From: Pelagomonas calceolata | Lineage: Eukaryota | DNA: 64,000 nt | Reading direction: 5' to 3' | Assembly (NCBI GenBank): GCA_918797485.1 | Contig: CAKKNE010000005.1 | Span: 3,596,001-3,660,000, forward strand | Made by a program: the position numbers and the translations under genes | In this document: piece after piece, positions 1,120 to 61,985 of the stretch | Position numbering within the stretch: position 1 is the stretch's first letter | How the letters are laid out: each line of letters begins with the position of its first letter | The notes under the pieces: generated by a model | Database searches by the model: none | Told to the model about the DNA's origin: nothing | What the model saw: the letters and a program-made list of their open reading frames with translations, nothing else

Positions 1120-1142
1120 GCTAGTGTCTTACTTGCGCTAGC
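1120..1142 (+). promoter_or_regulatory. Bipartite CTAG promoter-associated motif
   Basis: GCTAGTGTCTTACTTGCGCTAGC between divergent F-box/Kelch and XPG starts. Confidence 0.65.
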
Positions 1143-1291
1143 TCTGCGAGAGGGGGCGCCGCGTCTCGGGGCCACGCGTCTTTACGGCCGCCAGCGCTGT
1201 GGCCAGCACGCTCATAGGTGCGCCCCAACGCGGCAGAGTCAAGCCTTTTGACGCCTGCGCGCCAGCGGCACCGATTGAGATCTGAGGAGGC

Positions 1292-4200
1292 ATGGGCGTC
1301 AAGGGCCTCTGGAAGTTATTAGAACCGTGCGGCCGTCGTATTCATGTCGAGACGCTCGAGAACACGACGCTCGCTGTTGATGTCAGTATCTGGATGACAC
1401 AATTTGTGAAAGCGATGCGTGACGAGGAAGGTAGACCGATCAAAAACGCCCACGTCATCGGCACGCTGCGGCGCGTCGCGAAGCTCCTCTATCATGGCGT
1501 GCGACCGGTCATTGTGTTTGACGGCGGCGTCCCTGCTCTCAAGGAGCGGCTCATCCGCCAGCGGCGCATGCGGCGCGAGCGCCGCGAGGACGACGCGCGG
1601 TCCACCGCGAAGCGGCTCCTCGCCGCGCGGCTCCGCGCCGAGGCGTTGCGGAGGAAAGCCCCGGCCCAAAATACTGAGGCGGCCTACGCGGGCGGCTTCG
1701 ACCCGGGGAGCCAGGGCGAGGCCGCACCTACGAGGGCGCCGGCGCCGCGCCCCGCGCCCACGCAACCGTCACCAGAATCGTCGTCGGACGACGACGACGA
1801 CGACGGCTGCGAGTGGGAGCGCGGCGAGACCGCGGACGGTTTAGGGGTGGCGGCCGACGGCGACGCTTCCGCCGTCGACGTCGAGGCGCTCATCGCCCTG
1901 CCGCCGGCCGTAAGGAAAGCAAGGGTCGAGGCCGTCAACCGCAAGCAGCGCGTCGCCGCGCGGCGGCGCTTGATGCCTGTGGCCGGGGACGCCGACGAGT
2001 TCTCGGCGACGCAGCTCTCGTCGTTCCTGCAGGGCGCGACGTTCCGGCAGCGCGTCGAGCGGGCCCAGGCTGAAAGGGGAGACGACGACGCGCGCGGCGA
2101 GCGCATCCACTCGGACCCCAAGCGGCGCTTCGTGCTGTTGCGCGACGATGAAAACGGTCAGCAGGTCCGGGGCGGCGTCAAGGCGCGCATGGAGCGGTTC
2201 CTGCAGGCGAACGACGAGGAGGTCGTTGATGATGACGATGATGAGGATGACGCGCCGCCGACGTGCGCCGCGTGCGGCCGGCGGAAGAGTAGATGCGCGT
2301 GCGCCCTGCGCCACGGCGCCTGCGCGCGGCGACCGGCGCCGCGGCCGCGGCCGACGCCGCAGACCGTCGTGCCGCTGCCGGGCCAGTCCATCGACGAGGC
2401 CCTCGAGGAGGCCGAGCTCCGCTACGTCGAGGACTTCCCCGAGGAGTTCGCCGGGTCCGACGACGACGCGGCGCCGGCGCCGGCTCCCCTTGATGATGAT
2501 GGCGGCGGCGGCTTCTTCGTCGACGGCGAGGAGGAAGGCGGCGGCTTCGTCGCTGAGGACGACGACGGCGCGGCCGGCGGCGGCTTTTTCGCGGAGGAGG
2601 AGGAGGCCGCCGCGGCGCCCGCGCCCGCGGACGAGGGCGGCGGCGGCTTCATCGTCGAAGAAGAGGAGGAGGACGCCGGCGCCGCGCCGGCGCCCGCGGC
2701 CGACGACGCGTCCGAGTCGAGCGACGACTGCGCCTGGGAGGCGGGCAACGCCGACGACGCCGCCGACGACGCCGCGGCGGCGGGCGTCGCCGTCGCCGTC
2801 CCGTGCGCCGACCCGGAGGCCTTCCGCGCGCGCCTCGCGGCGCTCGGCGACGCCGGGGCCGCGCCGCCGCCGCCGGTCGCCGCCGAGGCCGAGGACGAAG
2901 CCGACGAGGTCGACGAGGCCGCGAACCGCCAGGCGCTCGCAGCGGCGGCGCGCACGGCGTCGCAGATGGCCGACTGGGCGGGCCGCGCGTTCCGGCGCGC
3001 GCTTGCTGACTCGGGGAGCGCGGAGCTGCTGGCACCGGCCGCCGCGCCCCCGGCGCCGGCCGCTGCGGTCCCGGCGCCGCGCGCCATGGAGGTCGAGGCG
3101 CCCGCGCCCGCCGCGGAGCCGCCGGCGGACGCGGACGCGGACGGCGACGCCGACCTCGCCCGCGCGCTCGCCCTGTCGCGCGAGGCAGCGCCCGAGCCCG
3201 AGCCCGCCGCCCAGGCGCCGCCGGTCGTCGAGGCGCCGCCGCCCGCCCCGCGGCCCACCGAGCGGGAGCCTGAGCCCCCCGCGCCGCGGCCCGCCCCCGA
3301 GCCGGCGTCAGCGCCGCGCCCGCCGCCTATGTCTCCCGCGGGGGCGCCGCCGCCCGCCGCCGCGCGGCCCACCGAACCGCCGCCTGCGGAGGTGCCACCG
3401 CCCGCGCCGCCGCCCACCGGCGCACAACTGCCCGCCGCCGCGCCTGAGCCGCCCGCGCCGCCCGCGGAGGAGCCACCGCCCGCCGAAGCGCCGCCGGCCG
3501 ACGATCACGACGACGACGCCTGGGCCCCGCACCGGAAGGCCGCGACGGAGGGCGGCTTCTACGAGGTCTGCCCCGACTTCGACGCGCAGCTCCAGTTCGC
3601 CCTCGACAACGCCCAGGAGGGCGACCTCGACGGCATGGCGGCCGCCGCCGCCGCGGCCACGGACCCGCGCGAGCGGGCCGTCTACGCTTACGTCGTGGCC
3701 GCCGTGCGCGCCAAGTGCCCACAACAGCCACCTTCGTTCGCCGACGCCGCGCGCGCCGACGCGCTGGACCGAGAAGCGGCGCAATTGCGGCGAGAGCTCG
3801 CGAGGTCAGCAAGGGACGCCGACAGCGTGACCGACGAGATGCGCGAGGACGTCATGGGTTTACTGGATGATCTCGGGGTGCCGTACATCGTCGCTCCCAT
3901 GGAGGCCGAGGCGCAATGTGCGGCTTTGGAACTTGCTGGATTGGTAGAAGGCACGATCACGGACGACAGCGACGCGTTCTGCTTCGGTGCCAAAAAGGTC
4001 TACAAGAACATTTTCGACGACAAAAAGTTCGTCGAGGCGTATTTTGCCGAGGACTGTCGAAGGGAGCTGAAGCTAGGTAGATCTGAGTTCGTGTCATTGG
4101 CTTTACTATTAGGTGGCGACTATGCGCACGGCGTGAAGGGCGTCGGCATCGTGAATGCGATGGAGGTGCTGCAGGCGTTCCATTTTCCCCATGCTCATTC

Positions 4201-4916: not shown

Positions 4917-5594
4917 TCAGGGGGCCGCGGCGAAGGATGCGAGCTTCGATCGCGCGCTCTCGAGGTTTCCGTTGATGGTCATCATAGTAGGATGGGCCGT
5001 CCCAAAGACCCGCCGCGCAGTCGAGGATAGCTCCTCGAGAAGCGCCACGGCTTCGACCAGGTCGTCTCTGCTTCGACCTTCTGAGATGAGGGCACTTGCG
5101 TAATTGATGCGAAGGGTTAGTACCGTCGCGTCTTCTGTGCCAAGCTCGCGCGCGGCCTCGGGGATTGTCGCCCGTAAAAATGGCTTCACCTCCTCGTAGC
5201 GTTCGCATCTATCGGCCTCGTCCATCAAGATCTTCGCCTGCTCCGCCAGACACGCCACGTGCGCGAAGCCGGCCGTCCCGCGGCACGCGCACCGGCGCAC
5301 GAGGCCCTCCTTCGTCTTCCAATGGAGGGCCTGCGTGCAGATGTAGCACGTCTGGCCCTTCGTGTCGTCCGCGCATTTCGCGACGGCCTCCGCGACGGCC
5401 TCCTTGTATTTGTTGTCGGCGTGGTATTGCTCAGCGTTGCCGCCGCGGTGTATCTTCTTACACATCTGCTTGTGGCCGCGGCGCCAGTGGTCATGCTGGC
5501 AAGTTTTGTTGCAGTACCTCGTCTGACATCTAACGCATCGCGGCGCGTTGTGGGCCAGTGGGGCGGCGCAGGCGGCGCAAGTTGTGAGGATCAT
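4917..5594 (-). CDS. MYND zinc finger + partial RING-variant protein, possibly internally deleted
   Basis: CAAC..CVRC..YCNKTCQHDHW..HKQMC (MYND); CYIC..CAC..H..C (RINGv lacking the last CxxC); TPR-like tail ARRVFGTAHP. Confidence 0.75.
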   Translation of the reverse strand: MILTTCAACAAPLAHNAPRCVRCQTRYCNKTCQHDHWRRGHKQMCKKIHRGGNAEQYHADNKYKEAVAEAVAKCADDTKGQTCYICTQALHWKTKEGLVRRCACRGTAGFAHVACLAEQAKILMDEADRCERYEEVKPFLRATIPEAARELGTEDATVLTLRINYASALISEGRSRDDLVEAVALLEELSSTARRVFGTAHPTMMTINGNLESARSKLASFAAAP

Positions 5595-7416: not shown

Positions 7417-8022
7417 TCACAGGTCGTCGAACCCCCCGCCATCGTCGTCGGCCGCGTCGTCGAACTGCCCCTCGACCCGTGCGAAGCCGGGAAGTGCAGG
7501 CGCCGGAGCGTCCGCGAGCATGGCGTCGAAGCGCCGCAGCATCGCCTCCGCGTCCGGCTCGTCGTCCTCACCAGCAATACCGAGCATGCCGCCGTCCGAC
7601 TCATCGGACTCGTCGTCAGAGTCGGGGTTCAGCTCCGCCGTCCGCGAGAGCGCGTCGAAGAGCGGTTCGAGGGCCGCGGCGTCGGGCGGCACCAGGAACA
7701 GCTCCGAGACGGCGTCGTCGGCCGCGGCGTCGCTCAGCAGGAGCTGCACGTAGAGGCAAGGTTCGGGGAAGGTCTGTGCGTCGCGCGTCACGGCGTGCAG
7801 GCCCACGCGCTTCGCCAAGAGCTCAAACCCGTGGGCGGGCTGCTCCCAGAGCACGCGCCGGCTCGTCACGCGCAGCCGGCCCGCGCCCCAGGGCGTGCTG
7901 TCGCCCTCCTGCGGCGCCGCTGTGATGCGCACGTCTTCTAGCGTGTACAAGAGCTCCTCGTCGGCAGCGATGCTTGTGGCGCCGTTGCTTAAAGGCTGCA
8001 GTGGGGAGGCGAAGCTAGCCAT
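7417..8022 (-). CDS. CLNS1A: Methylosome subunit pICln (Voldacs domain)
   Basis: GRLRVTSRRVLW..VGLHAVTRD..PCLYVQL..ELFLVP..LFDALS..AELNPD; C-terminal GQFDDA; ATG at 8022. Confidence 0.88.
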   Translation of the reverse strand: MASFASPLQPLSNGATSIAADEELLYTLEDVRITAAPQEGDSTPWGAGRLRVTSRRVLWEQPAHGFELLAKRVGLHAVTRDAQTFPEPCLYVQLLLSDAAADDAVSELFLVPPDAAALEPLFDALSRTAELNPDSDDESDESDGGMLGIAGEDDEPDAEAMLRRFDAMLADAPAPALPGFARVEGQFDDAADDDGGGFDDL

Positions 8023-8527
8023 CTCTTGTTTTTTCCAGCGGTTGCTTGCAGCGATGCGTGGCACAGCGATGTGTTTGCACAAATGTGATTGATTCTGGGC
8101 GTATCGATGTGCAATGGGCCAGCAAGCGCCACAAAAAGTCGATGCGCATCTCGTAAAACCAGCGCGAAACATACTAGAGAAACAAGGCAGGACGCCTCCA
8201 GGGCTCTCTCCCCCAAAACGACGAAGTCCCGGAGCGGTATACAGGTCCGAAAGGCATTGATTTGGCCCTCGCAAAAAACCCGCGGCCCCGCCAGTTGCTC
8301 ACGAACGCGGACGCCCTGCTTGGTGCGTAGTGTGTACCTGAGCGCCGCGGAGGACTCTCTGCGGGCCCAGCAGTAACGACAGGCCGCGGCGCTTCGAAAA
8401 AGCGACGCGCGCAGACGTGCCTTTGGCTAAAAACGCCCCAGCGCAAAAAGCCGCCGTTCACCCCGCGGACAGCGCCGGGACGCCATCAACGCCGCAAGCG
8501 CCGCGCCAGAGCAGCGCCAGAGCAGTT

Positions 8528-11500
8528 ATGGAAACCAAAATGGCCGAAACGAAGCTACGCGTCGCCATAAGGGTAAGGCCGCTCCGGAGCGAGGAGGGCG
8601 CGTGCGCGTGGCGCATCGAGGGCGAGAACGTCTACCAGGCGGACTGCGAGGAGGTTGTGGGGCGGACGGCCTTTAGATATGATGCGGTCTACGGCGAGAA
8701 CAGCGCCACGAAGGACGTCTACGAGGGCGTTTGTAGAGAGTTGGTGGATGGCGCGCTCCGCGGCGTGAACGGCACGATTTTTGCGTACGGCCAGACGTCG
8801 TCGGGCAAGACCTTCACGATGCAGGGCGGCGACAAGTACGGCGCCGGCGCGCCGGGCCTCATGCATTTGGCGGCGGACCACATTTTCTCCGTCATCGAGG
8901 CGCGGAGCGACACGGACTTTTTGCTGCGCGTGTCCTACCTCGAAGTGTACAACGAGCAGCTGCGCGACTTATTAGCGGAGGACGGCACGGGGGAAGTCCA
9001 CATCCGGGAGCACCCCGAGACCGGTGTTTATGTCGAAGGCGCGCAGGAGACGGTCGTGACGCAGCCCCACGACATGGCCGAGGCCCTAGTCCAGGGCGAG
9101 AAGCGGCGGGCCGTCGGTGCGACGGCCATGAACGAGAGATCGTCGAGGTCGCACACGGTCTTTAGGATCGTCGTCGAGTCGCGGCCGCGCGAGTGCGCCG
9201 AGGACCACGGCGTCCTCGTGGGGGCGATTTCGTTGGTGGATCTCGCCGGCTCGGAATCCGTACGATTGACGGGCGCGACGGGCGTGCGCCAGAAGGAGGG
9301 CGGCAAGATCAACCAGTCTCTCTTAACTTTATCTCGAGTGGTCCAGCAATTGGGCGAGAAGGGCAAGGAGAACTTTGTCAATTTTCGGGACTCGCGCCTG
9401 ACGCGGTTATTGCAGCCTACTTTATCGGGAAAAGCGCAGTTGGCCATGGTCTGCTGCGTCGCGCCGTCGTGCAACTACGTTGAGGAAACGAGATCTACCT
9501 TGCAGTTCGGGTCGCGGGCGGCGCGCGTCACGCTGAAGCCCGTGGTCCACGAGATTCTGGACGACGCGTCCCAATTACGCCGTGTGAAGCGCCAGCTGGC
9601 CGAGTTACTAGCGAAGCAAGAACAGCACGAGCGCGACCAGGCGTCGGGCAAGACGGAGGAGCTGGCTGATCTCCTCGAGAAGAACGAGAAGCTCGAGGCG
9701 GACCTAGCTCAGAGAGCGGCCAAGATGACGGAGCTTACCAAAATGATCTGCGTCGGCGGCACGAGCCAGCAACCGACCAAGCCGAGGAGGCGGCGCCGCG
9801 CGACGTGCGCCGTCGGTGCCCGCGGTTTTAGACCGGAGGACGATTCGAGGTTGCCCCAGATCCCGTCCTTCGCGCAGCTGCGGGCCCAGAAGAAGGCCGC
9901 GGAGCCCGTCGTCGAGGAGGAGGACGAGCCGCCGCCGCCGCCTCCATCTGAGGATGGGGTCCTGGGGGCCTGCCGCGACGATGATAGGGAGGCCGAAGCT
10001 CGAGGGCTGCCGGCGCTGGACCCGCCTACTTCAGATAATTTGGAAGCGGCCGTAAGGGCGCGACTCCAGAGAGCCGCCGACGAGACGCTCGCCGTGTCCC
10101 AGGACGCCGACGAGACCGTGTCTGAATTGAGAAGGCAATTGGAGGTCGAGAAGGAGGTGGCGGAGGAGGTCGAGGGCGAGCGGACGAAGATCGAAAGTGC
10201 GGCCGAAGCACTCAAAGAAAGGTTGGCCGCGGCCGAGGCCGAGGCCGGCGAACGGGCCGAGGCCCACGCTACGGAGGTGGATTCATTGAAACAGGAAGTC
10301 GCTGAGCTGCGCCGCTTGAACGAGGCGAGCCACGCGGAGAAGGTTTTGGTGGAGGAAAGCCTCGATGCCGTGAAGGCCCAGCTTAGTGAAGCGGAAGCCG
10401 CGCGCGACGCTCTACAAGAAGAGCTCGCTTCCGAACGCGAGAACGCCAAAATGACCAGGGACGCCGAGAGCCAGGCGACGATCGAGGCGTTGCAAGCTAA
10501 GATTGACGCGGCGTCCGAAGCGAGGGCCGAAGCCGACCGCCAGCTCGCGGACGCGGCGGCCGCGGCGGACGAGGCGCGGCAGGCGGCCGAGGCGGAAAAT
10601 GAGGCCGTGTTGCGGCGGTCGCGGGAAGAATTAGACGAGGCCCGGGCCGCGACCGCGCGCGCCGAGGAGGCCGCCGCGGCGGCCGAAGCGTCCCGAGCCT
10701 CCGTCGAGGCTTTGCGAGACGAGGAGCGTACTGAATCAGACGGCGTGCGCGGCGAGCGCGATTCTCTACAAACCGAGTGCGACGAATTAAGGACGCAGAT
10801 CGAGCGCGAGCGCCAGCAGGCGCGCGACGCGGCCGAAGCCCGGGCCTGCGAGGCCGCGGACGAGACCGACGCCACCATCGCGGAACTGCGAAGGCAGCTC
10901 GAGGTCGAGCGCGAGGTCGCGCGCGAGGCCGAATCGGAACGCGACGCGCTGTCGAAGAAGGCCGACGAGGCCGCGGCCCAAACCCAGGCCGCCCACGCAT
11001 CCATCTTAAAGTCGAAGGACGAGCGCATCGCGCGCCTCGAGAAGGTCAAGATGACGACGGCCATCTTCGCGCAGATCCAGAAGCTGAGGACGGACAAGGA
11101 GAGGGCCCTCGCCGAGGCGAAAGAACTAAGAACGCGCGTCGCGGCCCTCGAGGCGGCGTCGGCGTCGCCGAAGGAGGCCCGCGAGGACACGGAACTGGCA
11201 GCACGCTGCGCCGCCGCCGACGCGGCCTGCAAGGCCGCGACGGAGCGCGCCGCGCGCCTCGAGGCGCGCGCGGCGCGCGCGGAGCAGTCCATGTCCAAGA
11301 TCCGCACGCCCGGCGGGCGCCGCGCGCTGCGCGAGACGGATGCGCTCCACGACAAGATCGAGTTCCTCGAGCAGGAGAACCTGGACCTCATGTTGGAAGT
11401 CAAGGCGCTCAAGGCGTCGCAGGCGCGCCTCGCGGCGTCGCCGGTAGCTGTCTCTGGCGACGTCGGCGACGAGAACGCGCCGCCGGGGCCGTCGCCCGTC

Positions 11501-12501: not shown

Positions 12502-12565
12502 GGTCCCTTGTCCTTCAAAATGTGGGCAGCCTGGTACTGCCTTTGCGCATGGGCAGCTCTGGCAG

Positions 12566-13237: not shown

Positions 13238-13315
13238 GTCTGCCAGCACTCTGCTCTGTGTGGGGAGGCGAGCCGATAGCCCGACGAGGAGTATGCGTTA
13301 GTTTAAAAGTTAACA

Positions 13316-14020: not shown

Positions 14021-14103
14021 TGATGCAACCAGCACTTGCGCGTGGGCAAATGCATCCGTATCGCCCCGCCCGCGCTCGAGCTGAGATTGCTGGGCCAGGG
14101 GTG

Positions 14104-14127
14104 CCTAGTGTCTTACAAGCCGCTAGC
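14104..14127 (+). promoter_or_regulatory. Bipartite CTAG promoter-associated motif
   Basis: CCTAGTGTCTTACAAGCCGCTAGC between divergent starts. Confidence 0.65.
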
Positions 14128-17971: not shown

Positions 17972-18117
17972 GATTGCTGCTCATGGACCGCGGACCGCTG
18001 CCCTGGCGGGCGGCCTCGCTCTGGCTGGCAGCGTTTTCCCTCACTCTGAGGTCAGGCTGCCCCTGTTCCTCTGGCAATGTCTCTGCAGCGGATCCGCTTC
18101 CGATTTTTTTAGTTCTT

Positions 18118-18151
18118 GCTAGTGTCTTACCTGTAAGTACAGGCCGCTAGC
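18118..18151 (+). promoter_or_regulatory. Bipartite CTAG motif with 10-bp insertion
   Basis: GCTAGTGTCTTAC[CTGTAAGTAC]AGGCCGCTAGC. Confidence 0.55.
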
Positions 18152-20557: not shown

Positions 20558-20581
20558 GCTAGCGGCATGTGAGACACTAGC
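20558..20581 (-). promoter_or_regulatory. Bipartite CTAG promoter-associated motif
   Basis: Reverse complement GCTAGTGTCTCACATGCCGCTAGC upstream of the OTU gene. Confidence 0.6.
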
Positions 20582-22044: not shown

Positions 22045-22066
22045 GCTAGTATGTCGATACACTAGG
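22045..22066. promoter_or_regulatory. CTAG-N12-CTAG motif variant with no adjacent annotated gene start
   Basis: GCTAGTATGTCGATACACTAGG, similar to the 36795 variant. Confidence 0.45.
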
Positions 22067-27756: not shown

Positions 27757-27780
27757 GCTAGCGGCCTGTAAGGCACTAGC
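27757..27780 (-). promoter_or_regulatory. Bipartite CTAG promoter-associated motif
   Basis: Reverse complement GCTAGTGCCTTACAGGCCGCTAGC between divergent starts. Confidence 0.65.
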
Positions 27781-29804: not shown

Positions 29805-30251
29805 TAGGGGGATGCACCCCGCCAGCTGGCGGGCTCCCCGCCGGCCGGCCAGCCGGATTTTTCGCCGGCGGGCCCGCCGGGTCACAGGTCTCCGGCGGGA
29901 CCCGCCGGCTCTTGGGCCGGCGGGCCCCTCCGGGCGTCCGGCGGGCCCGCCGGGTCGGTGTGGAAATACCTCCCTAGACGCCGCTTTGGAGGTTTATTTT
30001 GGTTGTATTCGCGGCCCGAGGGTGCCAGGGGGTCTCGCTTCCCGCAGTGGAGGCGCGTAATAAGGGTTTTAGGCCGTTCGAAGTGAGCCGGCGGGTCCGG
30101 CGGGCCCGCCAGCCGGATATTTTTCTGGCGGGCCGCCGGCCGGATAGCTCTACAGAGACGTATTTGGGCCGGCCGGAGGGTTCCCCCTCCGGCCGGAGCT
30201 GTGGGCTGGCTGGCGGGCCGCCGGCCCCAGCTGGCGGGGTGCATCCCCCTA
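29805..30251. mobile_element. hAT-like MITE (447 bp)
   Basis: Perfect 25-bp TIRs TAGGGGGATGCACCCCGCCAGCTGG; perfect 8-bp TSD CCAAAAAG (29797-29804, 30252-30259); GC-rich subterminal repeats; no ORF. Confidence 0.93.
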
Positions 30252-36794: not shown

Positions 36795-36816
36795 GCTAGC
36801 GTGTCGACATACTAGG
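36795..36816 (-). promoter_or_regulatory. CTAG-N12-CTAG motif variant
   Basis: GCTAGCGTGTCGACATACTAGG. Confidence 0.5.
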
Positions 36817-47424: not shown

Positions 47425-47448
47425 GCTAGTGTCTTACAGGCCGCTAGC
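47425..47448 (+). promoter_or_regulatory. Bipartite CTAG promoter-associated motif
   Basis: GCTAGTGTCTTACAGGCCGCTAGC between divergent starts. Confidence 0.65.
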
Positions 47449-51564: not shown

Positions 51565-51801
51565 CGTGAATGCGCTTGCAAGCAGTACCTTATCAACCGA
51601 ATACCGCGGCGTAAAGAGAGGGTGGCCAGCCGCTCTGACAGCGCCCTCTCCCAACACAAACACACCGGCCTGCAACCAAGCGCTTGGCTGCGAGCGGGTC
51701 TACGCGTGCGTTTGAATTGATATCACAACGTGGTGCAACCAATGGCTTCGTGGGCTGCGCGCACCACATAAATTCCGCCGTGGTCAAATCAAACAATTCT
51801 T

Positions 51802-51825
51802 GCTAGTGTCTTACATTACGCTAGC
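51802..51825 (+). promoter_or_regulatory. Bipartite CTAG promoter-associated motif
   Basis: GCTAGTGTCTTACATTACGCTAGC between divergent starts. Confidence 0.65.
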
Positions 51826-52059
51826 AGCTCACAGCATCGAGCCGGCCAGGCCAATCCTCAGCCCGCGTGCACCCACAAAGCACCGCAAAAGCACGAGCGA
51901 TTGTCAGCCTACCATCATGTGGAGTCATAACACGTGAGCCCGCACAGCCATAGCACAGCTGCACAGCCCCGGTACAGCTGGAGAAACGCCGTCGACGCGC
52001 GTGCAAAGCAAGCATTCATTCTGAAACGTATCGCATCGCTGCCAGCGAGCATCGATCAC

Positions 52060-53064: not shown

Positions 53065-53080
53065 GTACTAAATAGCCTTC

Positions 53081-53995: not shown

Positions 53996-54343
53996 GGTCT
54001 GCTTGTCTCAGGAAGGCAGAGATGAGCTTAGATACGAGGCGACAGCGTATGAGGACCGGAGGCGGGCCGGGCGTGGTCACGCGGATCCGCGTCGTCGCCG
54101 CGCTCCGGTTCGCAAAAGCTTAAAAACCCGAGATTTGCTAATTAGGGCGCGGTTTTTTTTCTCTGACTTGTCCGGCCCCCTCCGGCCCCCGGCCGGTGTT
54201 ACGGCGTGGGTCGCGGCAGGCGTCTAGTGCACGGGGTTTTCGATAATTTACGCAGATAGATGTATACTCAGAACCGGTCTTTGCAGAGCAGCCCGAGCCG
54301 GACGCGCCACCGCTCGCCCCGGATCGGTTTCGGCCAGACCTAA

Positions 54344-54796
54344 GACGAGGCGCCGACGCCGGCGCAGAGCCCCGAGCAGACCTACGACGCGCTCGAGACG
54401 AACGAGGCCGCGCAGGACGCGGCGCAGTGGCGCCGCCGCGCCGCGGACTTGGAACGACAGGTCCTGGCGCTACAGCGCGAAAACGCCGCCCTGCGCGTCG
54501 GCGCGCGGCCGCCCTGGGCCTCACCTGATCAGGCTCCGGCGCCCGGCCCCTCCTTTGGGTCCTCTGCCGCCTTGGATGCCAACGAGCAGACGGCCTCAGA
54601 CCTCCTGTTCGCCGACGACGCGATCTTCGACATCGGCGATGAGGACCAGAACGAGAACGCCTGGGCCTGGCCCGACGCGTTCGGCCTCGGGTGCTGTTTG
54701 GCCCCGGAGCCTACGACGCCCGCTACGCCCGGCGTGCGCTTCGTGAGCAAGGGCAAGCGTCAGCGCGTGCCCGAAGAGTCCGACTCCGGACGCTGA
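54344..54796 (+). CDS. Small coiled-coil hypothetical protein; 5' structure unresolved
   Basis: Coding-like frame (LERQVLALQRENAALR), but an in-frame TAA at 54341-54343 and no ATG; needs an upstream exon or is disrupted. Confidence 0.35.
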   Translation, partial: DEAPTPAQSPEQTYDALETNEAAQDAAQWRRRAADLERQVLALQRENAALRVGARPPWASPDQAPAPGPSFGSSAALDANEQTASDLLFADDAIFDIGDEDQNENAWAWPDAFGLGCCLAPEPTTPATPGVRFVSKGKRQRVPEESDSGR

Positions 54797-54944
54797 TCAT
54801 CACCACGCCATTTCCCCGTGGCCCACACGTGCCGCGGTCGGCGCGAACGTATGCGTCCATCTCCATGAAATCCCCAACTCCTACTCCATGTTCCCCATTA
54901 ACAACCATATCAAGGATGTCTCGTGGTGGCGAATTGCTCCATTT

Positions 54945-54968
54945 GCTAGTATCTTACAACACGCTAGT
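54945..54968 (+). promoter_or_regulatory. Bipartite CTAG promoter-associated motif
   Basis: GCTAGTATCTTACAACACGCTAGT ~170 bp upstream of the epimerase ATG. Confidence 0.6.
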
Positions 54969-55137
54969 CGCCGCAGCTCGGCAGCTCCCCAGCGACGCCG
55001 CATCCCTGCCGCTGTGCACGCGTTTTAGGTGTTTAATCTATCAACCAGTTGATAATCTCGAGTCCTGTGCAGCGCTGCCGTTGCAGCTTACGCAGCCGTG
55101 ACAAACACACAAAGCTCTCACAGCTCTCACAAATACT

Positions 55138-56085
55138 ATGCGACCGCAAACATCCGCACTGCTCGCCGCGGCAGCCGCCACAGCCGCATGGCTCCTCTAC
55201 AAGAAAAAGAAGAAACGACGCGTCGTCATCACGGGCTGCTGTGGTAACCTCGGTCGCAAGCTCGGCGCCTACCTCCAGGAACGAGGCGTCGAGGTCGTCG
55301 GAATCGAGCACCCCGACTACTGCGCGAAGGGCTCCGAGCCGCCCTGCGACCGAGTGGTCCAAGGAGACGCCCAGCAGCCCGGCGGCGTGCCGTGGCGCCG
55401 CGTCCTCGCGGGCGCCGACGCCGTCGTCCACTTCAGCGCCGTGAATCCTTACCCTAACGCAGACTGGTCCGAGAGCAGCGGGTCCATGGACCACGCCTTC
55501 AACGTCGCGCTCGCGGCCGCCGACGCGGGCGTGCCCCGTTTCATCTTAGCTTCCTCGAACCATGTCATGGGCGGCTACAAGGACGACCATAAACATGGCG
55601 TGGTAAAGCCGTCGGACGCGCCGCGCGTCGGGACGGCGCTCAACGACCCCGCTGCTGCCCAGCGCGCGGGCGACGCCGTCGCCTACGCCGCGGCGAAGCT
55701 GGCCGCGGAACGGCTGCTGGCGGCGCTCGCGCACGTGCGGCCGCGCACGGTATTCCTCGCCCTCCGGGTCGGCTGGTGCCAGCCGGGTATCAACTCGCCG
55801 CGGACCATCGGGGCCTCGGGCGTGCCGCCCGCCTTCGAAACCGCCGGGGCGGCGGCATCCGTCAAGGACGACTCGCACGACGACGCCTGGTTCCGGGGCA
55901 TGTGGCTCTCGAACGGCGACTTCCTGCGCCTCTTCGGCGCCGCGGCGCTGTCGGACCGTATTCCGGGGTCGGGCTACCACTGCGTCAACGCCATGTCCGC
56001 GAACACTAATGCAAGGTGGTCGCTCGACGAGACGGAGGCGCTCCTCGGCGTGCGGCCCCGCGACGACGCGGCGAGCTATGGCTAG
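55138..56085 (+). CDS. NAD-dependent epimerase/dehydratase (extended SDR, uronate-dehydrogenase-like)
   Basis: VITGCCGNLG, ASSNHVMG, YAAAK, LRVGW, WLSNGD; N-terminal anchor + KKKKKRR. Confidence 0.85.
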   Translation: MRPQTSALLAAAAATAAWLLYKKKKKRRVVITGCCGNLGRKLGAYLQERGVEVVGIEHPDYCAKGSEPPCDRVVQGDAQQPGGVPWRRVLAGADAVVHFSAVNPYPNADWSESSGSMDHAFNVALAAADAGVPRFILASSNHVMGGYKDDHKHGVVKPSDAPRVGTALNDPAAAQRAGDAVAYAAAKLAAERLLAALAHVRPRTVFLALRVGWCQPGINSPRTIGASGVPPAFETAGAAASVKDDSHDDAWFRGMWLSNGDFLRLFGAAALSDRIPGSGYHCVNAMSANTNARWSLDETEALLGVRPRDDAASYG

Positions 56086-56187
56086 CTCACGTTATACGCC
56101 ATCGCCGCGCGTAAGTTAATGTGGTGTTACACGGGGAGCATGTCGCGATGCGTTTCGGGTCGGGGGCGCGGGCGGACGATTTCAACT

Positions 56188-56844
56188 CTAGACGAGGCAG
56201 AACTCGCCGTACTCGTCGCCGTGCTGGCCGCAGAGCGAGCGCTTGGCGGCCTCGACCGTCTTCTTGGCGCGCGCGTTGAAGTGCTTCGTGTGGCCCTTGG
56301 CCTTCTGGAAGAAGACCTTGCCGAGCTCGCAGCTCAGCACACGGAACGTTCGGTAGATGTCCACCGGGCCGCTGCCCGCGTCGAGGAGCGAGGCGATCTG
56401 CTGGAGCCCCAGCTCTTTTTCTTCTTCTGCGGCGACCTCGTAGCAGATTTCTAGGACTTCCGGGTCGACTAGGGCCGGCGCCTCGGTATCTAAGACCTGG
56501 AGCATCTCGTCGAGGTTGTTCTTCGCGCCGGGAGCGGAGAAGTGGATGTCGCGCGGCGCGACGCCCGCGTGCAGCTTGCCGTCGGCCGTCTTGATCTCGT
56601 AGCGGAGGCCTCCTTTCGCCTTGACCTTGTGGCCATCAATCACACCGAGCGTCGTGTGCTTGTTGAGGTCGAACTCGACGACCGTGCCCTTGCTCATGGC
56701 ATTAATCTGGACCGGTTCCGCGTCGGCGTCGCCCGCGTCCTTGTCCTTCTTCTTGAATACAATAGTCCTCGCCGCGGCGGGCGCGGGCGGGGCCAGGAAG
56801 GCGCTGGCGCCGTGGATGGCTAGGAGGGCTAGGAGGCGGTGCAT
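56188..56844 (-). CDS. Plastid-targeted hypothetical protein
   Basis: Bipartite presequence with GASA-FLAP cleavage motif. Confidence 0.75.
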   Translation of the reverse strand: MHRLLALLAIHGASAFLAPPAPAAARTIVFKKKDKDAGDADAEPVQINAMSKGTVVEFDLNKHTTLGVIDGHKVKAKGGLRYEIKTADGKLHAGVAPRDIHFSAPGAKNNLDEMLQVLDTEAPALVDPEVLEICYEVAAEEEKELGLQQIASLLDAGSGPVDIYRTFRVLSCELGKVFFQKAKGHTKHFNARAKKTVEAAKRSLCGQHGDEYGEFCLV

Positions 56845-57086
56845 GTTGCGCTGCCTTGGTCGCTGCGTAGCGAGATAGAGAGTGCGGCGGATAATTTCAG
56901 CCGTCAACGGGTCAATTTAATATGTACAGCAGCAGTGCAGGGCGCTAAAAGTCACGGCTTCCGACCACTGAAGCGCGAGGCGCAGCGAGCCACTTCAATG
57001 ACCGCGTAGCTCCTTTTCTGCGCGCAGACGAGCGCTCCTCGTCGGCCGCAGGCGTGGCTCCTCCCTGCGGAGCGGTCAGCGCGCAC

Positions 57087-57110
57087 GCTAGTGTCTTACA
57101 AGCCGCTAGC
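57087..57110 (+). promoter_or_regulatory. Bipartite CTAG promoter-associated motif
   Basis: GCTAGTGTCTTACAAGCCGCTAGC between divergent starts. Confidence 0.65.
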
Positions 57111-57309
57111 GCGCTCGTGTTTGCACGCGGCAAAAAACGACCGCTGCAGGCTCTCGTACAAGTGCATGCTGGCGCGAGCTGTGCGCAAGTCGACCAGTGC
57201 ACGCAGTAGCAGTGCTGCGCACGAGAAACGCCGATAGCAGCTAGCAACTCACATCTCCTGGAGAGCACCAAGCACTGCAGCTACCGCAGCGGAGCAGCGG
57301 AGAGCCCCC

Positions 57310-59851
57310 ATGCGGCCACACGCATGCATCGCAGCGCTGGCCGTAGCGGTACATGGCTACCTCCCGCCGCTCCCGACGCGCGACCTACGAACAAGACGCC
57401 TCGCCACGGTCCAAGACGAGCCCCAACAAACGAGGAAGGAGTTCACGGTGCCCAAGGCCGCGTCGACGCGGGAGACGGAAGTCCGGGCCGTGACCGCGTT
57501 GAGTCGAGACGGTAATGTGTCCTTGCCGGAAGTGTTTGTGGGGAATGATGGCTCTTCGCGGCAGTTGTATGATAATGGGGTGGTCATGCCCGTGGGCTGG
57601 ACGGGCGCATCTACTAGAAGACGCACGGGCAGTAAGTTCACGGGAACTTTACTAGCATCGACGGAGTTCCCCGTCGGCGACGCCGGAGCCAACCCCCAAA
57701 GGATAGCGCCGTTCTCGCGGAAGACGTGGCTCCAAGGTGTGCGAGATGATATCAGAAAACGATCACCGCTATACGCCCAGGACTGGTTCGACGGGTTGCG
57801 GAACCCGGCGAAGAGCGCCGGAGCCTGTTTATTTCTGTATTTTGCCGTGCTCGCGCCGGCGGTCGCGTTCGGTGGCGTCATGCAGACGGCGACGTGCGGG
57901 GCGCTGGGCCCGCGCGACGTGCTGCTGAGCTGCGGGCTGAGCGGCATGGCATACGCGTATTGGGCGGCGTCCTTTTTTCCTCGACGGCGTCGAGAGGAGT
58001 GACTCGCGATGCACGTCGAGAGAAACACAGAGAGGAGCCGCGCGTCGATGGCGTCGAGGTGGACGTATAAAGCTAGACGAGACGAATCGCCTCGAGATGG
58101 CGCGTGCAGAGAGTGGTTGGACAGACACACACAGACAAAGACACGGAAAAAAAAAACACAGGTGCCTCGCCGGCCAGCCCATGACCTTCGTCGCGCCGAC
58201 AGGACTCACTCTATCTTTCATCGGAGCATTGTCCGCCTGGACTATTAAATCTGGGGTCCCATTCCTACCGATGTACGCGTGGTGCGGCTGCTGGACGGCT
58301 TTATACCTCGCGGTCTTAGCGTCGTTCAACGCTTCTGGATTGATAAGGTACTGCACGCGCTTCACGGAGGACGTCTTCAACGCATTATTAGCCTTCAATT
58401 TTGTCTCAGAAGGGTTTTCTCCGGTGAGGAAAGTCATCGGGAACAGTCTCGCGTCGTCCAAAGGGGCTGCTGATGCTCTACTCGCTGCGAATGCGGCCGG
58501 TGGCACGTGTCTCGCTTGTCGGGCCTTCGCGGGAGCGCCCAAAACACGATTCTTTACCGCAAGAGCTCGCTCTCTACTCGCGGACTTTGGGCCAGCTGCT
58601 ACTATAGTCTTCGCCTCGTCCCTATTCTCGCTACCATCGGTGCGCAAGCTCGGCTCGCTGAAACGATTAACTTTAGGAGCGCCGCGCGAGAAGCTCTTTT
58701 CGTTAGTGGACATGGGCGCCCTATCGTTAAAGTACCGGTTGTTAGCAGCCATACCCGCTGTTTTTTTGGCGACATTGTTCTTCCTCGACCAGAACATTAC
58801 GGTCCGAACGGTCAATTCGCCCCAAAACAAGCTCAAGAAGGGCGCGGCGTATCATTTAGATTTGTTTGCTCTAGCTTCTATTACATTAGCGTCGTCACTG
58901 CTGGGCCTGCCGTGGATGTGCTCGGCGACGGTGCAGTCCCTGAATCACGTGCGGGCCTTGTCGACCTACGCCGACCAGGAGACACAAACGGTGGAGAAGG
59001 TCGATACGCCTCCAAAAGAGCCCTCGAAGCCGGCGCCGCTCGCCGCGCCGGCGGCCCAGAAAAGGCCTTTACCTTCTCCTGACGAGATCATCCGCGCCGC
59101 AAAAACCGAGCCGCCCGCCAAAAAGCCCCTCCCGAAGGCCGGCGACATCATCCTCGCGCGGTCTCTGGTGTCGGTCCAGAAACGCACGACCACCCAACCG
59201 CAGAAAGGGATTAGTTTTGGCGGCTATGCGAACGACTACTTGGAAGTTGTCAATAAAACGTTGTCGGTGAACAGGACGCAGGAAGATAGAGCCGAGGCCG
59301 TCGCGGCGGCCAGTCGTGCTACGGCCGGCGGCGGGGCCGCTCGCGTCGCGCAGGCGAAAGAGTTGGCATCAAAACCGGTCAACGTCGTGACGAAACCTAC
59401 CGTTTCCGGCGACGTCAAGGATGTCGTGGAGACGCGTTTGACTGGTTTCACGGTCCATGCTTTAGTGTTGGCTTCGCTGGGTTTTGCGCCGGTACTAGCA
59501 GAAGTGCCTCTGGCCGTCGTCTGGGGCGTGTTCCTCTTCCTCGGCTTCAAGGTCATGGCGGGCAACCAGTTTTTAGGGAGAGTCGTGTCGCTGTTTATTG
59601 ATCCAAGAATGCTCAACCCGACGAGTGAGGCGGAACGGGCCGTCGTCGAGTTAGGACGGAAGCGGGTCCTGCGGTACACGGCGGTCCAGGCGTCCTGCTT
59701 AGCCGCTCTATGGTTGTTGAAACTCAATAAAGCGACGGCCATGGTCTTCCCGTCCGTGATTGGGGTCTTGCTCGTGCTGCGCGCGTCTCTATTGCCCCGG
59801 GTGTTTTCACCTAGAGAGCTGCTGACGCTGGACACGGAGATAGATCGGTAA
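57310..59851 (+). CDS. SLC4: SLC4-family bicarbonate/anion transporter; join(57310..57956,58162..59851)
   Basis: LYAQDWFDG..FLYFAVLAPAVAFG, GQPM..TG, TRFTED, FFLDQNIT, LKKGAAYHLD, ATVQSLNH, VVETRLTG; GT-AG intron restores the frame. Confidence 0.93.
57957..58161 (+). other. Spliceosomal intron (205 nt, GT-AG)
   Basis: GTATTG..AAACACAG; gives in-frame ..MAYA|CLAGQP. Confidence 0.85.
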
Positions 59852-60036
59852 TTCATCCATAGTTCTTAGTAGTATCGCGTCGTCGCGGCGAATGCGGATG
59901 CGGATGCTCTGGATCTTGCTCTGCCTTTCCAGTGTTTCATGGGATTTCCCCACGGCCTAACTAACGCCCGACGTCTTGCACAATCGACGCGAAAGCAACG
60001 CCTATTACGATACCAACGCGCGTAGTGAGTTTCATC

Positions 60037-60976
60037 ATGATCCGTAAGCTTGCTCTTGTTTTAGCCCTCTCTGCCTCGAGCCAAGCACTGCTGCAGCCGC
60101 GCAATCGCCGCGCCCTGTCAGTCCGCGGCGGTGGCGACACCCTTACTAATGTACGCTTCCCGCGCCGTGAACAGATTGACTTTTGCGACCGCGCGTGGGG
60201 CCGCGGCGCCGGCGGGCCCGCGTCAAAGTTGGTTTAAATCTATAGCGTGCGTGCCCGCTTACCTTCTCTCTCCCGCGGCGCGCGGGCGCGCGGCGACGCC
60301 GCGACGGTGGCACGCGCAGGTCGCCGCCGGCCTCATCGGCGCGCAAGGCGTCATGTCGTACCTCGGTCCCGCCCAGACGATGGAGAGCTACGGCATGAAG
60401 AGTGATGCATTCACGGACGCCATCGTTCGCGGCTCCGGCGCGTGGCAGATGTGCGCGGCGGCCACTATGGTACTCGACGAGGAGACGATCCTGGACAAGG
60501 CTTTCATCCCCGTGATCGCGGCCATGCTCCTATACATCCCCGCCATTACTGAAGTCAAGGGCGGCATACCCAAGGAGCCTCTCGTCGCGTGGCTCGGCGT
60601 CCACGTGGTCCTCGCGACGCTGGCGGAGTCCGGCAAAGTGAACAAATGGGTGGCGCCGGCGCTCTACATCTTCAACGGCGCCCAAGCCTACTTCGCGCCC
60701 GAACAAACGTTCAAGCTCTACGGCGGCCCCGCGCTCTCGGCGGAGGGCGTCCACGTGACCCGCGTCTGGGGCACGGCTATGCTCTGCACCGCCGCTTACC
60801 TGTCCGCGCTCGCGAACGGCGACGGCGCGCGCAAGGGCGTCGGCTACGCCTACCTCGTGGCCGCCGGCACCGTTATCCGCTCATTCGTGTTCGACACCGA
60901 CCTCGGCGTTTCGCGTCCCATCCTGGCCGCATGGATCGTCGCCTGCCTCGGCATCGCGTACCTCGGGCTCAACTAG
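60037..60976 (+). CDS. Signal-peptide multi-pass membrane protein with internal duplication; join(60037..60150,60320..60976)
   Basis: Signal peptide + VRGG; GTACGC..CGCAG intron in phase 0; repeats YLGPAQTMESYG / YFAPEQTFKLYG. Confidence 0.72.
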
Positions 60977-61048
60977 AAGAGGCGCGCTGGGCTGATCCCC
61001 GACCAAGCGGGGACTACTACTACTAAGCCTCCTTACATCGACAACATT

Positions 61049-61109
61049 CTTACAGTTCGTCTCTCCGCCGCTTCGCGCGTCTTACAGTTCGTCCCTCCGC
61101 CGCTTCGCG
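61049..61109. repeat. 32-bp tandem duplication of the DnaJ gene 3' end
   Basis: CTTACAGTTCGTCTCTCCGCCGCTTCGCG / CTTACAGTTCGTCCCTCCGCCGCTTCGCG. Confidence 0.85.
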
Positions 61110-61720
61110 TACGCCGCGTAGCGCCTCCGCACCTCGGCCGGGTCCACGCGCCTCCCGTTAACCGTAAAGCGCACGTTCCCCTGGCCGACGTGGTCGCCGA
61201 CCTTCTTCATGATGTGTTCTAAATCAAGCTTCGACAGGGTCCATACCAGCCAAGACATGGAGCTCTTGAGGAGCGACCGCTTGATCCGCACCGCGTAGGA
61301 TTCGCCAGGGCTCGTCGGCCAGGCTCGCTCCACGGACTGCTTCAGCGATTGCTCGAGGAGCGTCGCGTTCGACCAGGCCTTGGCGATGTGCTCGCCGTAT
61401 CCTTTGAACGCGTCGCCAAATTCTTCTTCGAAGCGGAATAGCGCTGCGAACAAGGCCTCCTCGGGCGGCGTGCCCGCTGGTGGCTTGCTCGCGCCGCCCG
61501 GCTGCGAAAGGCTCTCGTAGGCGTCGTGGATCTTGATGAATTCATTACTATCACCTCCTTTGTCCGGGTGGTGCTCGCGGGCCAAACGCTTGTACGCCTT
61601 CTTTATCTCTTCGGGTGTGGCGCCCTTACGCAAGCCCAAAGTCCTCAGCGCGTCGCTTTCGAACATGCCAGCTGCGCTGAAGAACGTCAGCACGCATGTG
61701 AGGAGCCACAGCACTCGCAT
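61082..61720 (-). CDS. ER-luminal DnaJ-domain co-chaperone
   Basis: Signal peptide, IKKAYKRLAREHHPDKGG..AYESL J-domain, C-terminal RDEL. Confidence 0.88.
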   Translation of the reverse strand: MRVLWLLTCVLTFFSAAGMFESDALRTLGLRKGATPEEIKKAYKRLAREHHPDKGGDSNEFIKIHDAYESLSQPGGASKPPAGTPPEEALFAALFRFEEEFGDAFKGYGEHIAKAWSNATLLEQSLKQSVERAWPTSPGESYAVRIKRSLLKSSMSWLVWTLSKLDLEHIMKKVGDHVGQGNVRFTVNGRRVDPAEVRRRYAAYAKRRRDEL

Positions 61721-61963
61721 GGTGAAAGCCTCCAGCCGGCTGTACCCTGGCAAGGGCTGACGGCTTACTCGCCCGCGCAGCGCTAACTACAGCACTGTCA
61801 GCAGACGAGTGTCGAGCTGTGTAGCGACGAATGAGGACTATTGCCGCGGCAGCGATGGCGTGCCGTTGCACAGCAGCGAGGGCAACACTAAGACGCAATA
61901 TAGAAGGACCTGGTGCCCCTATTTGGCAGCCTCCACGCGTAGCAAAGTGCCGCATGCGAGTTA

Positions 61964-61985
61964 GCTAGCGGCAGTGACACACTAA
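61964..61985 (-). promoter_or_regulatory. Degenerate CTAG motif
   Basis: GCTAGCGGCAGTGACACACTAA between divergent DnaJ and dynein starts. Confidence 0.5.

What the first reader, a model, noticed from the sequence alone, without database searches (positions are those of the whole stretch)
1120..61985. Recurrent CTAG-N12-14-CTAG element marks nearly every promoter region: candidate lineage-specific bidirectional core-promoter element
Seen: the consensus GCTAG-TGTCTTACA(A/G)GC-CGCTAGC occurs once per intergenic region at 1120, 14104, 15427(-), 18118, 20558(-), 23209(-), 27757(-), 43361, 47425, 51802, 54945 and 57087. Variants occur at 22045, 29771, 36795, 39782 and 61964. Copies lie in either orientation, mostly ~65-300 bp from an ATG, in most divergent gene pairs. 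I noticed none inside coding sequence or between convergent 3' ends. Flanks are unrelated, so this is not a larger repeat. Inference: two palindromic CTAG half-sites with near-fixed spacing suggest a binding site for a dimeric general regulatory factor that sets up nucleosome-free bidirectional promoters, analogous in role to yeast Abf1/Reb1. I do not recognise it as a described motif.
Basis: partly seen in the sequence, partly recalled or inferred. Interest (0 to 1): 0.85.

Follow-up and report, generated by a model that had tools for sequence, protein, structure and literature searches.

The report
Long two-way promoter element of Pelagomonas
A roughly 29-base DNA word sits in front of many unrelated genes of a common open-ocean alga, mostly between back-to-back genes and about 10-40 bases before where RNAs begin, and it is likely the landing site of a still unknown protein that opens these promoters in both directions.

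Summary
Real and far above chance: 16 CTAG-N12-14-CTAG against about 1 expected. The window is a pelagophyte alga, Pelagomonas. The element is an asymmetric ~29-bp word, (GCTT)GCTAGTGTCTTAC-N3/4-CGCTAG(CT). It lies in 12 of 13 divergent, 5 of 12 tandem and 0 of 12 convergent gaps, and never in CDS at 12 bits or more. Metagenome contigs replicate this: 12/20, 4/20, 0/30. 'Nearly every promoter' is therefore too strong.

In stranded RNA-seq, 7 of 17 listed 5'-end clusters lie 9-39 bp outside an element, pointing away, on both of its sides. T-tracts flank it symmetrically. No target-site duplication, conserved flank, compensatory pairing or Rfam match was found.

Best reading (0.65): the binding site of an abundant promoter-opening factor, working like yeast GRFs or the vertebrate CGCG element but with its own sequence. 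The factor and any nucleosome depletion are untested. No description turned up in 10 literature searches or in earlier scan notes. Open lead: no TBP or TFIIB is annotated in the 88% of the published gene table I could read.

The parts
1121..1141 (+). Element, 13-bp spacer, in the divergent gap between a Kelch gene and XPG
   Evidence: 33.8 bits
8159..8177 (-).
   Evidence: 12.9 bits
13203..13224 (+). Weak element-like copy in the right arm of a transcribed inverted repeat (12566-13237)
   Evidence: 13.6 bits
14105..14126 (+). Element, 14-bp spacer, divergent gap
   Evidence: 32.2 bits
15428..15448 (-). Element, 13-bp spacer, divergent gap; identical at the orthologous place of L076 while flanks diverge
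18119..18150 (+). Element with a 10-bp insertion in the spacer (24 bp), divergent gap
18083..18089 (-). RNA 5'-end pile-up of the DUF285 gene, 30-36 bp outside the element, all four runs
   Evidence: table 6 (15, 26, 10, 54 molecules at 18083)
20559..20580 (-). Element, 14-bp spacer, tandem gap; kept with a 15-bp spacer at the orthologous place of L005
20520..20520 (-). RNA 5'-end pile-up 39 bp outside the element (one run, 6 molecules)
22046..22065 (+). Variant element, 12-bp spacer
   Evidence: 22.9 bits
23210..23231 (-). Element, 14-bp spacer, divergent gap before thymidylate kinase
   Evidence: 32.8 bits
23242..23259 (+). RNA 5'-end pile-ups of thymidylate kinase, 11-28 bp outside the element, three runs
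27758..27779 (-). Element, 14-bp spacer, divergent gap
   Evidence: 30.6 bits
29772..29795 (-). Degenerate element (below 8 bits in the matrix scan); 5'-end pile-up at 29742, 30 bp outside
29807..30249 (.). TA-flanked terminal-inverted-repeat element (MITE-like) inserted 11 bp beside the degenerate element; KIN17 5' ends pile up at 30265 beyond it
36796..36815 (-). Variant element, 12-bp spacer, tandem gap
   Evidence: 20.6 bits
39783..39802 (-). Variant element, 12-bp spacer, tandem gap
   Evidence: 25.7 bits
43362..43382 (+). Element, 13-bp spacer, tandem gap before a DCN1-like gene; 5'-end pile-up at 43330 (minus), 32 bp outside
47426..47447 (+). Element, full consensus, divergent gap
   Evidence: 36.7 bits
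51803..51824 (+). Element, 14-bp spacer, divergent gap; 5'-end pile-ups at 51849 and 51855 (plus), 25-31 bp outside
54946..54967 (+). Element, 14-bp spacer, 171 bp before the epimerase ATG
57088..57109 (+). Element, 14-bp spacer, divergent gap; the only listed 5' pile-up here (56951, minus) is 137 bp away and does not fit the usual offset
61965..61985 (-). Variant element (TTAG in one arm), divergent gap DnaJ / dynein; 5'-end pile-ups at 61928 and 61956 (minus), 37 and 9 bp outside

Best explanation
This is a ~29-bp asymmetric promoter element of Pelagomonas that likely serves, as double-stranded DNA, as the binding site of an abundant sequence-specific factor predicted to keep the promoter open and to set transcription starts about 25-40 bp away on either side. 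Shown: the sequence, its restriction to gaps upstream of genes, its orientation independence, coding regions pointing outward on both sides (median 157 and 172 bp to the ATG), RNA 5' ends just outside it, and T-tracts 6-26 bp out on each outward strand. Inferred: a two-part protein contact (two DNA-binding domains or two proteins, one per arm, across a 12-15-bp spacer), exclusion of a nucleosome, and loading of Pol II complexes at both edges. It would license promoters rather than set their strength, since partner genes differ up to about 100-fold in RNA depth. The factor is unknown. AP2 or Myb+AP2 proteins are the first candidates, because Toxoplasma AP2XI-5 recognises GCTAGC and the P. calceolata gene table lists such proteins.
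For: Enrichment 16 versus about 1. A matrix trained on 26 non-seed metagenome copies finds 18 intergenic and 0 CDS hits at 12 bits or more in the window (null mean 0.47): 12/13 divergent, 5/12 tandem, 0/12 convergent gaps. The reverse test (matrix from 15 window copies, applied to non-seed gaps of contigs of 1.5 kb or more) gives 12/20, 4/20, 0/30 and 0 hits in 162 kb of CDS; pooled divergent versus tandem P=5e-4. Coding potential points outward on both sides of about 130 seeds. Seven of 17 listed 5'-end clusters lie within 40 bp outside an element on the outward strand, 3 on one arm's side and 4 on the other (P=3e-4 for 7 of 8 against uniform placement between element and ATG). TTT at +6..+25 on outward strands: 243 versus 71 expected over 322 flanks. 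Neighbouring genes are unrelated in function. The element is kept in orthologous promoters while flanks diverge. CG frequency peaks at +105-120 and +285-300 on both sides, 180 bp apart, anchored on the element rather than the ATG (residual P=0.023). The stored gene table lists 17 AP2-domain genes; AP2XI-5 binds GCTAGC (PMC13734140, passages).
Against: There are no binding, chromatin or reporter data. The 5' ends come from ordinary polyA RNA-seq of one sample (four runs), with 5-54 molecules per pile-up and truncated tables (17 and 1 rows not shown). No single element showed pile-ups on both sides. Ten of 17 clusters are not near an element; one (56951) is 137 bp away. Genes without a nearby good copy are expressed (KIN17 depth 28-58, the gene at 24100-26013 about 2-17, rhomboid about 4-19), so the element is not required for all promoters. 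One copy with a 10-bp spacer insertion still has the strongest 5' pile-up. The CG phasing is weak and exploratory; there is no genome-wide 180-bp CG autocorrelation and no clear 10-bp periodicity. Three of the four orthologous comparisons were selected on the motif. Information content (about 32 bits from 15 window copies) is far above the ~13 bits needed to find ~8,000 sites, which one ordinary factor does not explain.
Confidence: 0.65

Rival explanations
1. It is a true core-promoter element that replaces the TATA box: a dedicated factor on it recruits the basal machinery directly, each arm at about -30 to -40 from its own start, possibly in a lineage where TBP/TFIIB are lost or strongly diverged.
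For: Start offsets cluster at 25-39 bp, TATA-like spacing. Information is about twice what site-finding needs. In the 14,639 of 16,667 gene rows that are stored (chromosomes 1-5 and the start of 6) there is no TBP (PF00352, IPR000814, K03120), no TFIIB (K03124, PF08271; PF00382 only in Brf1) and no TFIIA, while TAF1/5/6/9/13, TFIIE-beta, TFIIF-alpha/beta, Brf1 and SNAP43 are listed.
Against: The table is cut, and about 2,000 chromosome-6 genes were not seen. Brf1 keeps its TBP-binding domain, and TBP is thought universal in eukaryotes (recalled). Starts are dispersed (11-28 bp at one promoter; 9 and 37 at another). Many tandem promoters lack the element.
Confidence: 0.17
2. It is a dispersed relic or target of a mobile element or recombinase, found in promoters only because insertions survive there.
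For: High information content and one dominant spacer (AGGC in 27 of 126 seeds) could reflect common ancestry. Two unrelated copies carry an insertion at the same spacer position (18119 and L013). A MITE sits 11 bp from one copy, and in L076 the neighbouring gene is replaced within about 30 bp of the element.
Against: Flank conservation ends at about -5 and +2. No target-site duplication (2.40 versus null 2.36 +/- 0.06). Almost always one copy per gap, absent from convergent gaps and CDS. Preserved against diverging flanks. Variable spacer length is unlike recombination sites (recalled).
Confidence: 0.07
3. It serves a chromosome function that merely coincides with promoters: replication-origin licensing, an insulator, or protection from linker CG methylation.
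For: Orientation-independent, central in divergent gaps, contains a conserved CG, and CG peaks are phased around it. Partner genes are expressed very unequally.
Against: The extrapolated 7,500-9,000 copies are many more than origins usually number (recalled). The tight offset to 5' ends and the outward T-tracts tie it to initiation.
Confidence: 0.08
4. It works as a hairpin in RNA or as a DNA cruciform (7-bp stem with one G-T pair).
For: The arms can pair; 1 of 5 folded copies had z=-2.4.
Against: All 7 nearby 5'-end clusters leave the element outside the RNA. In 42 non-seed copies there is no compensatory double change: the inner G-C pair becomes A-C in 5 and is never restored, and the T-G mismatch is kept in 37. 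Four of 5 folds are no better than shuffles. No Rfam match.
Confidence: 0.03

Closest known systems
Yeast general regulatory factor sites (Abf1, Reb1, Cbf1, Rsc3/30; PMC2897762, passages seen)
   Same: Lineage-specific cis-element upstream of many unrelated genes, next to poly(dA:dT)-like tracts; GRF repertoires are known to differ between species.
   Different: Different sequence; much longer (~29 bp, ~30 bits); one word covers most divergent promoters; it sits only 25-40 bp from the starts; nucleosome depletion and the factor are not shown here.
Vertebrate CGCG element TCTCGCGAGA (PMC6192621, abstract and section 27 seen) and chromatin-opening TFs that set the TSS at CpG islands (10.64898/2026.05.04.722487, abstract and passages)
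   Same: TATA-less GC-rich promoters; divergent starts 28-51 nt from the element; housekeeping-type genes.
   Different: That element is a 10-bp true palindrome in a subset of promoters with reporter proof. This one is bipartite and asymmetric, has a variable spacer, and has no functional test.
Toxoplasma promoter hexamers GCATGC and GCTAGC (AP2XI-5) (PMC13734140 and PMC7854901, passages)
   Same: A SAR-lineage protist with bidirectional promoters; the right arm here contains GCTAGC in most copies; P. calceolata has AP2 proteins.
   Different: The Toxoplasma motifs are 6-mers peaking at -82 to -84, and GCTAGC marks 12% of promoters, a late programme. Here the hexamer is one arm of a 29-bp unit, the other arm reads GCTAGT, and the offset is about half as large.

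Membership tests
GRF-type promoter site (yeast Abf1/Reb1 class) | Enriched upstream of many functionally unrelated genes, not in CDS | tested here: met
GRF-type promoter site (yeast Abf1/Reb1 class) | Lies upstream of the TSS, orientation-independent | tested here: met
   7 of 17 5'-end clusters 9-39 bp outside, on both sides; one sample, not CAGE
GRF-type promoter site (yeast Abf1/Reb1 class) | Nucleosome depletion in vivo, with phased flanking nucleosomes | tested here: inconclusive
   Sequence proxies only: T-tracts, CG peaks 180 bp apart, P=0.023; no 10-bp phasing
GRF-type promoter site (yeast Abf1/Reb1 class) | Bound by an abundant sequence-specific protein | not testable with these tools
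   Needs EMSA, pull-down or footprinting
GRF-type promoter site (yeast Abf1/Reb1 class) | Matches the Abf1 or Reb1 consensus (consensus recalled, from no call) | tested here: not met
   By inspection of the consensus
Vertebrate CGCG element | Consensus TCTCGCGAGA | tested here: not met
Vertebrate CGCG element | Divergent starts about 28-51 nt away | tested here: inconclusive
   Offsets are similar and occur on both arms when pooled, but no single copy showed both directions
Vertebrate CGCG element | Sufficient to drive a reporter; methylation-sensitive | not testable with these tools
   Bench test
ApiAP2 (AP2XI-5) GCTAGC site | GCTAGC hexamer | tested here: met
   Right arm is followed by C in 86% of 126 seeds; the left arm reads GCTAGT
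ApiAP2 (AP2XI-5) GCTAGC site | Peak at about -84; subset of promoters (12%) | tested here: not met
   Offset 9-39 bp from the edge; 60-92% of divergent gaps
ApiAP2 (AP2XI-5) GCTAGC site | Bound by an AP2 domain | not testable with these tools
   17 AP2 genes exist in the stored table; binding unknown
MITE / transposon end | Target-site duplication | tested here: not met
MITE / transposon end | Conserved sequence beyond the core, paired termini | tested here: not met
   Flanks at background beyond -5/+2 in 126 seeds
MITE / transposon end | Empty orthologous sites | tested here: inconclusive
   None in 4 clear orthologous pairs, 3 of them selected on the motif
Structured RNA element | Lies inside a transcript | tested here: not met
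Structured RNA element | Compensatory base changes or Rfam match | tested here: not met

The most novel reading that the evidence does not exclude
Pelagomonas runs much of its Pol II transcription from one long bidirectional core-promoter word that replaces TATA: a dedicated two-headed factor places a start 25-40 bp off each arm, in a lineage whose TBP and TFIIB are lost or unrecognisably diverged (neither is annotated in the 88% of the gene table that could be read).
Probability: 0.12. Interest if true: 0.92.

Novelty: new variant of a known kind. Interest (0 to 1): 0.66.

Why it matters
Pelagomonas calceolata is an abundant open-ocean picoalga, and the genome paper has no promoter analysis (0 hits for 'motif' or 'promoter' in the main text). 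One long word marking most divergent promoters gives a direct handle for finding the master promoter factor by DNA pull-down. It also offers a short bidirectional synthetic promoter for transformation, a start-site predictor for annotation, and a marker that flags Pelagomonas DNA in metagenome bins. A single ~30-bit element at an extrapolated 7,500-9,000 sites is unusual among described eukaryotic promoters and makes a simple test case for how compact genomes define bidirectional promoters. If TBP/TFIIB prove missing or diverged, it would bear on how universal the basal machinery is.

Tried and rejected
No whole genome was held, so no genome-wide count was possible; the copy number is an extrapolation from 64 kb.

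Rfam and ARAGORN: nothing. Viral contigs: 0 matches to the strict pattern. A loose pattern gave 92 loci, none with the inner TCTTAC core in place, read as chance. GTDB: 5 matches in 596 Gb, all in marine MAGs. In the 3 read in detail (L124, L127, L128) the match lies in an alga-like segment joined to prokaryotic genes; L125 and L126 are short contigs that I did not classify.

Tested and rejected: hairpin covariation, target-site duplication, 10-bp rotational phasing, and genome-wide CG periodicity. A shared regulon was rejected because neighbours are unrelated (64 proteins). RFX and p53-like readings (motifs recalled) were dropped: the flanks do not fit, and PF02257 is absent from the stored table. 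L001/L022 and L026/L056 are paralogous gene families, not orthologous promoters.

Range beyond Pelagomonas was not testable: every named neighbour (6 of 17 clusters found, from 20 proteins asked) was P. calceolata. I tried to obtain a TBP query to test for a pelagophyte TBP, got only a 70-aa archaeal fragment and stopped. PMC6672047 does not mention Aureococcus. The papers on periodic linker methylation and introners in Aureococcus were not held and are recalled only.

Literature searches without a description of the motif: (listings only unless stated). The library lacks most subscription papers; bioRxiv supplements were not seen. Earlier scan notes: nothing on this element.
Full report
Observation. 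The window (64.6% GC) is a gene-dense eukaryotic stretch with 38 gene models by my codon model and Pfam. CTAG-N12-14-CTAG occurs 16 times against 0.97 expected. Re-placing the 122 CTAGs within their compartments gives mean 1.0, max 7 in 10,000 trials. Fifteen are intergenic; 56451 is an unrelated pair in CDS.

Organism. The closest named homologues of the window's thymidylate kinase are pelagophytes (Pelagophyceae sp. CCMP2097 61%, Chrysophaeum taylorii 60%). The window has two ~210-bp repeated introns that are spliced (19209-19416, 48518-48728), the introner size reported for Pelagomonas calceolata (10.1101/2021.10.25.465678, passages). Proteins next to the element in metagenome contigs fall in clusters with named P. 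calceolata proteins in 6 of 17 clusters found; the other 11 show no species name among the members read. I take the window to be P. calceolata. No whole genome was available.

Anatomy. Outside the pattern, conservation extends five bases left (T, G 62%, C 52%, T 70%, T 78%) and two right (C 86%, T 58%), then falls to background. The unit is thus about 29 bp: (GCTT)GCTAGTGTCTTAC-N3/4-CGCTAG(CT), commonest spacer AGGC (27 of 126). Copies not selected by the pattern have CTAG-to-CTAG spacers of 12-15, peak 14. Left arms nearly always have a partner (154 of 162, seeds included). Fifteen window copies carry about 32 bits, against about 13 needed for ~8,000 sites.

Where it lies. A matrix trained on 26 non-seed metagenome copies finds 18 intergenic and 0 coding hits at 12 bits or more in the window (null 0.47): 12 of 13 divergent, 5 of 12 tandem, 0 of 12 convergent gaps. 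At 8 bits two weak CDS hits appear. The reverse test, with automatic and therefore noisy gene calls and seed-bearing gaps left out, gives 12 of 20, 4 of 20, 0 of 30, and 0 hits in 162 kb of CDS. Against the pattern, 2 of the 37 seed-bearing gaps were called convergent there. Pooled divergent versus tandem: P=5e-4. Around the seeds coding potential points outward on both sides, beginning about 150-200 bp away, with median ATG distances 157 and 172 bp. Neighbours include RPL4, threonine synthase, cyclin, Rab28, helicases, transporters and many unknowns, so it is not a pathway regulon. In GTDB genomes the pattern matched 5 times, all in marine MAGs; in the 3 read in detail the match is in an alga-like segment of a chimeric contig. 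IMG/VR has no strict match.

Relation to transcripts. Four stranded polyA runs of one sample were laid on 12400-30600 and 42301-62300. The listed fragment-end pile-ups that mark RNA 5' ends form 17 clusters. Seven lie 9-39 bp outside an element on the outward strand: 18083/89, 20520, 23242-59, 29742 (degenerate copy), 43330, 51849/55 and 61928/56. Three are on the left-arm side and four on the right-arm side, and most offsets are 25-39 bp. Chance expectation is 1.6% per cluster (P about 6e-9, computed for 18 clusters). Against uniform placement between element and ATG, 7 of 8 gives P=3e-4. The other ten clusters are: 56951 (137 bp from an element), 30265 (beyond a MITE), four in repeats, three inside CDS, and 50491. 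Limits: this is not CAGE, counts are 5-54 molecules, 18 rows were not shown, and no single copy had pile-ups on both sides. Stranded depth does show both partners expressed at several copies, often very unequally (for example 27-92 versus under 1 at 61965). Genes with no good copy nearby are also expressed.

Flanking grammar. Over 322 outward flanks, TTT at +6..+25 occurs 243 times against 71 expected, on both sides, so T-tracts lie between element and start. CG frequency peaks at +105-120 and +285-300 on each side separately, with a dip at +135-150 in all ATG-distance classes and no such pattern when anchored on the ATG (residual P=0.023). This would fit nucleosomes phased 180 bp apart from the element, but it is exploratory: no 10-bp phasing and no general CG periodicity were seen.

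Conservation. The element is kept while flanks diverge in L011/L079, L012/L029, window 15428/L076 and window 20559/L005; only the last copy was not selected by the pattern. Spacer length or sequence changes in three of the four pairs. These contigs are P. calceolata or close relatives; wider range is untested.

Rivals. Hairpin: the element is outside the RNAs; in 42 non-seed copies no compensatory change occurs and the inner G-C becomes A-C five times; 4 of 5 folds are ordinary; Rfam is empty. Transposon relic: no target-site duplication and no conserved flanks, though the high information content and two same-position spacer insertions leave an ancient mobile origin open. An origin or insulator role is not excluded but explains the start offset poorly.

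Mechanism. Most likely (0.65) an abundant factor contacts both arms on double-stranded DNA, keeps about 80-100 bp open with help from the T-tracts, and lets Pol II start at both edges. Location and start offset are shown; binding and chromatin opening are inferred. Candidates: the stored gene table lists 17 AP2-domain genes, three fused to Myb domains (PMC9481584 supplement 4), and Toxoplasma AP2XI-5 recognises GCTAGC (PMC13734140, passages). This is a lead only. The same table, cut at 14,639 of 16,667 genes, shows no TBP, TFIIB or TFIIA but does show TAFs, TFIIE, TFIIF, Brf1 and SNAP43. The genes may lie among the ~2,000 unseen ones, and I could not test this. It supports the rival that the element is itself the core promoter (0.17).

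Comparison and novelty. It works like yeast GRF sites (PMC2897762, passages), the vertebrate CGCG element (PMC6192621, abstract and one section) and start-setting chromatin-opening factors (10.64898/2026.05.04.722487, abstract and passages), but matches none in sequence. It is longer, asymmetric, variably spaced and far more dominant. The genome paper has no occurrence of 'motif' or 'promoter' in its main text, and its readable supplements have no CTAG or MEME (one PDF unreadable, one table cut). Ten searches and six look-ups of earlier scan notes found no description; subscription papers are mostly not covered. Verdict: a real, apparently undescribed promoter-defining element, a new variant of a known kind; interest 0.66.

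Noticed in passing
window 19209-19416 and 48518-48728: Two copies (91% alike) of a ~210-bp repeated intron, spliced in RNA with GC..AG and, after shifting the cut, introner-type ends; the family is also in L006, L033, L034 and L070. Matches the introners already reported for P. calceolata.
   Followed up: partly
window 29807-30249: MITE-like element with ~23-bp terminal inverted repeats flanked by TA, inserted 11 bp from a degenerate element. Without it the KIN17 5' end (30265) would be 25 bp from the element.
   Followed up: partly
window 12566-13237: Multi-copy transcribed non-coding element with 39-bp inverted arms that contain element-like half-sites; RNA 5' ends lie on both sides of the left arm (12524/36 minus, 12598/606 plus).
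   Followed up: partly
window 18119-18150 and L013 (minus strand): Two unrelated copies of the element carry an insertion (10 and 6 bp) at the same spacer position, beginning with the same six bases; it resembles a TA-duplication footprint or a short inverted duplication. Unexplained.
   Followed up: no
window 4917-5594; L007, L043, L063, L102, L104: Paralogues of a young MYND+RINGv family share sequence only from about the ATG; 4 of 5 locus copies sit 50-70 bp from an element (selected on the motif), as if inserted into existing promoters. The window copy has none.
   Followed up: partly
L012, L027, L028, L055, L075, L096; window 8190-8210 and 20895-20910: A second word (GAGCCCTGGAAGC-like) follows the right arm at a short variable distance in a subset of promoters, and GGCTGCCC is enriched within 150 bp (26 versus 3.3 expected).
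   Followed up: partly
window 36758-36785; L027, L047, L051, L061, L082, L086: A ~80-bp repeat family rich in CTAG begins near elements in several promoters; the window holds only its first ~28 bp.
   Followed up: no
L124, L127, L128: GTDB MAG contigs labelled Spirochaeta, Gammaproteobacteria and Poseidoniales contain alga-like segments with the element, so they look chimeric.
   Followed up: partly
PMC9481584 supplementary file 4: No TBP, TFIIB or TFIIA is annotated among the 14,639 of 16,667 gene rows stored; chromosome 6 is mostly unseen.
   Followed up: partly
window 18079, 61866, 61885: Second alleles at about 30-50% of RNA reads in single-copy 5' regions suggest the sequenced strain is heterozygous.
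   Followed up: no
window 20300-22200: A 1.9-kb gap without a clear ORF is transcribed on both strands from multi-copy sequence and is flanked by two elements (20559, 22046).
   Followed up: no
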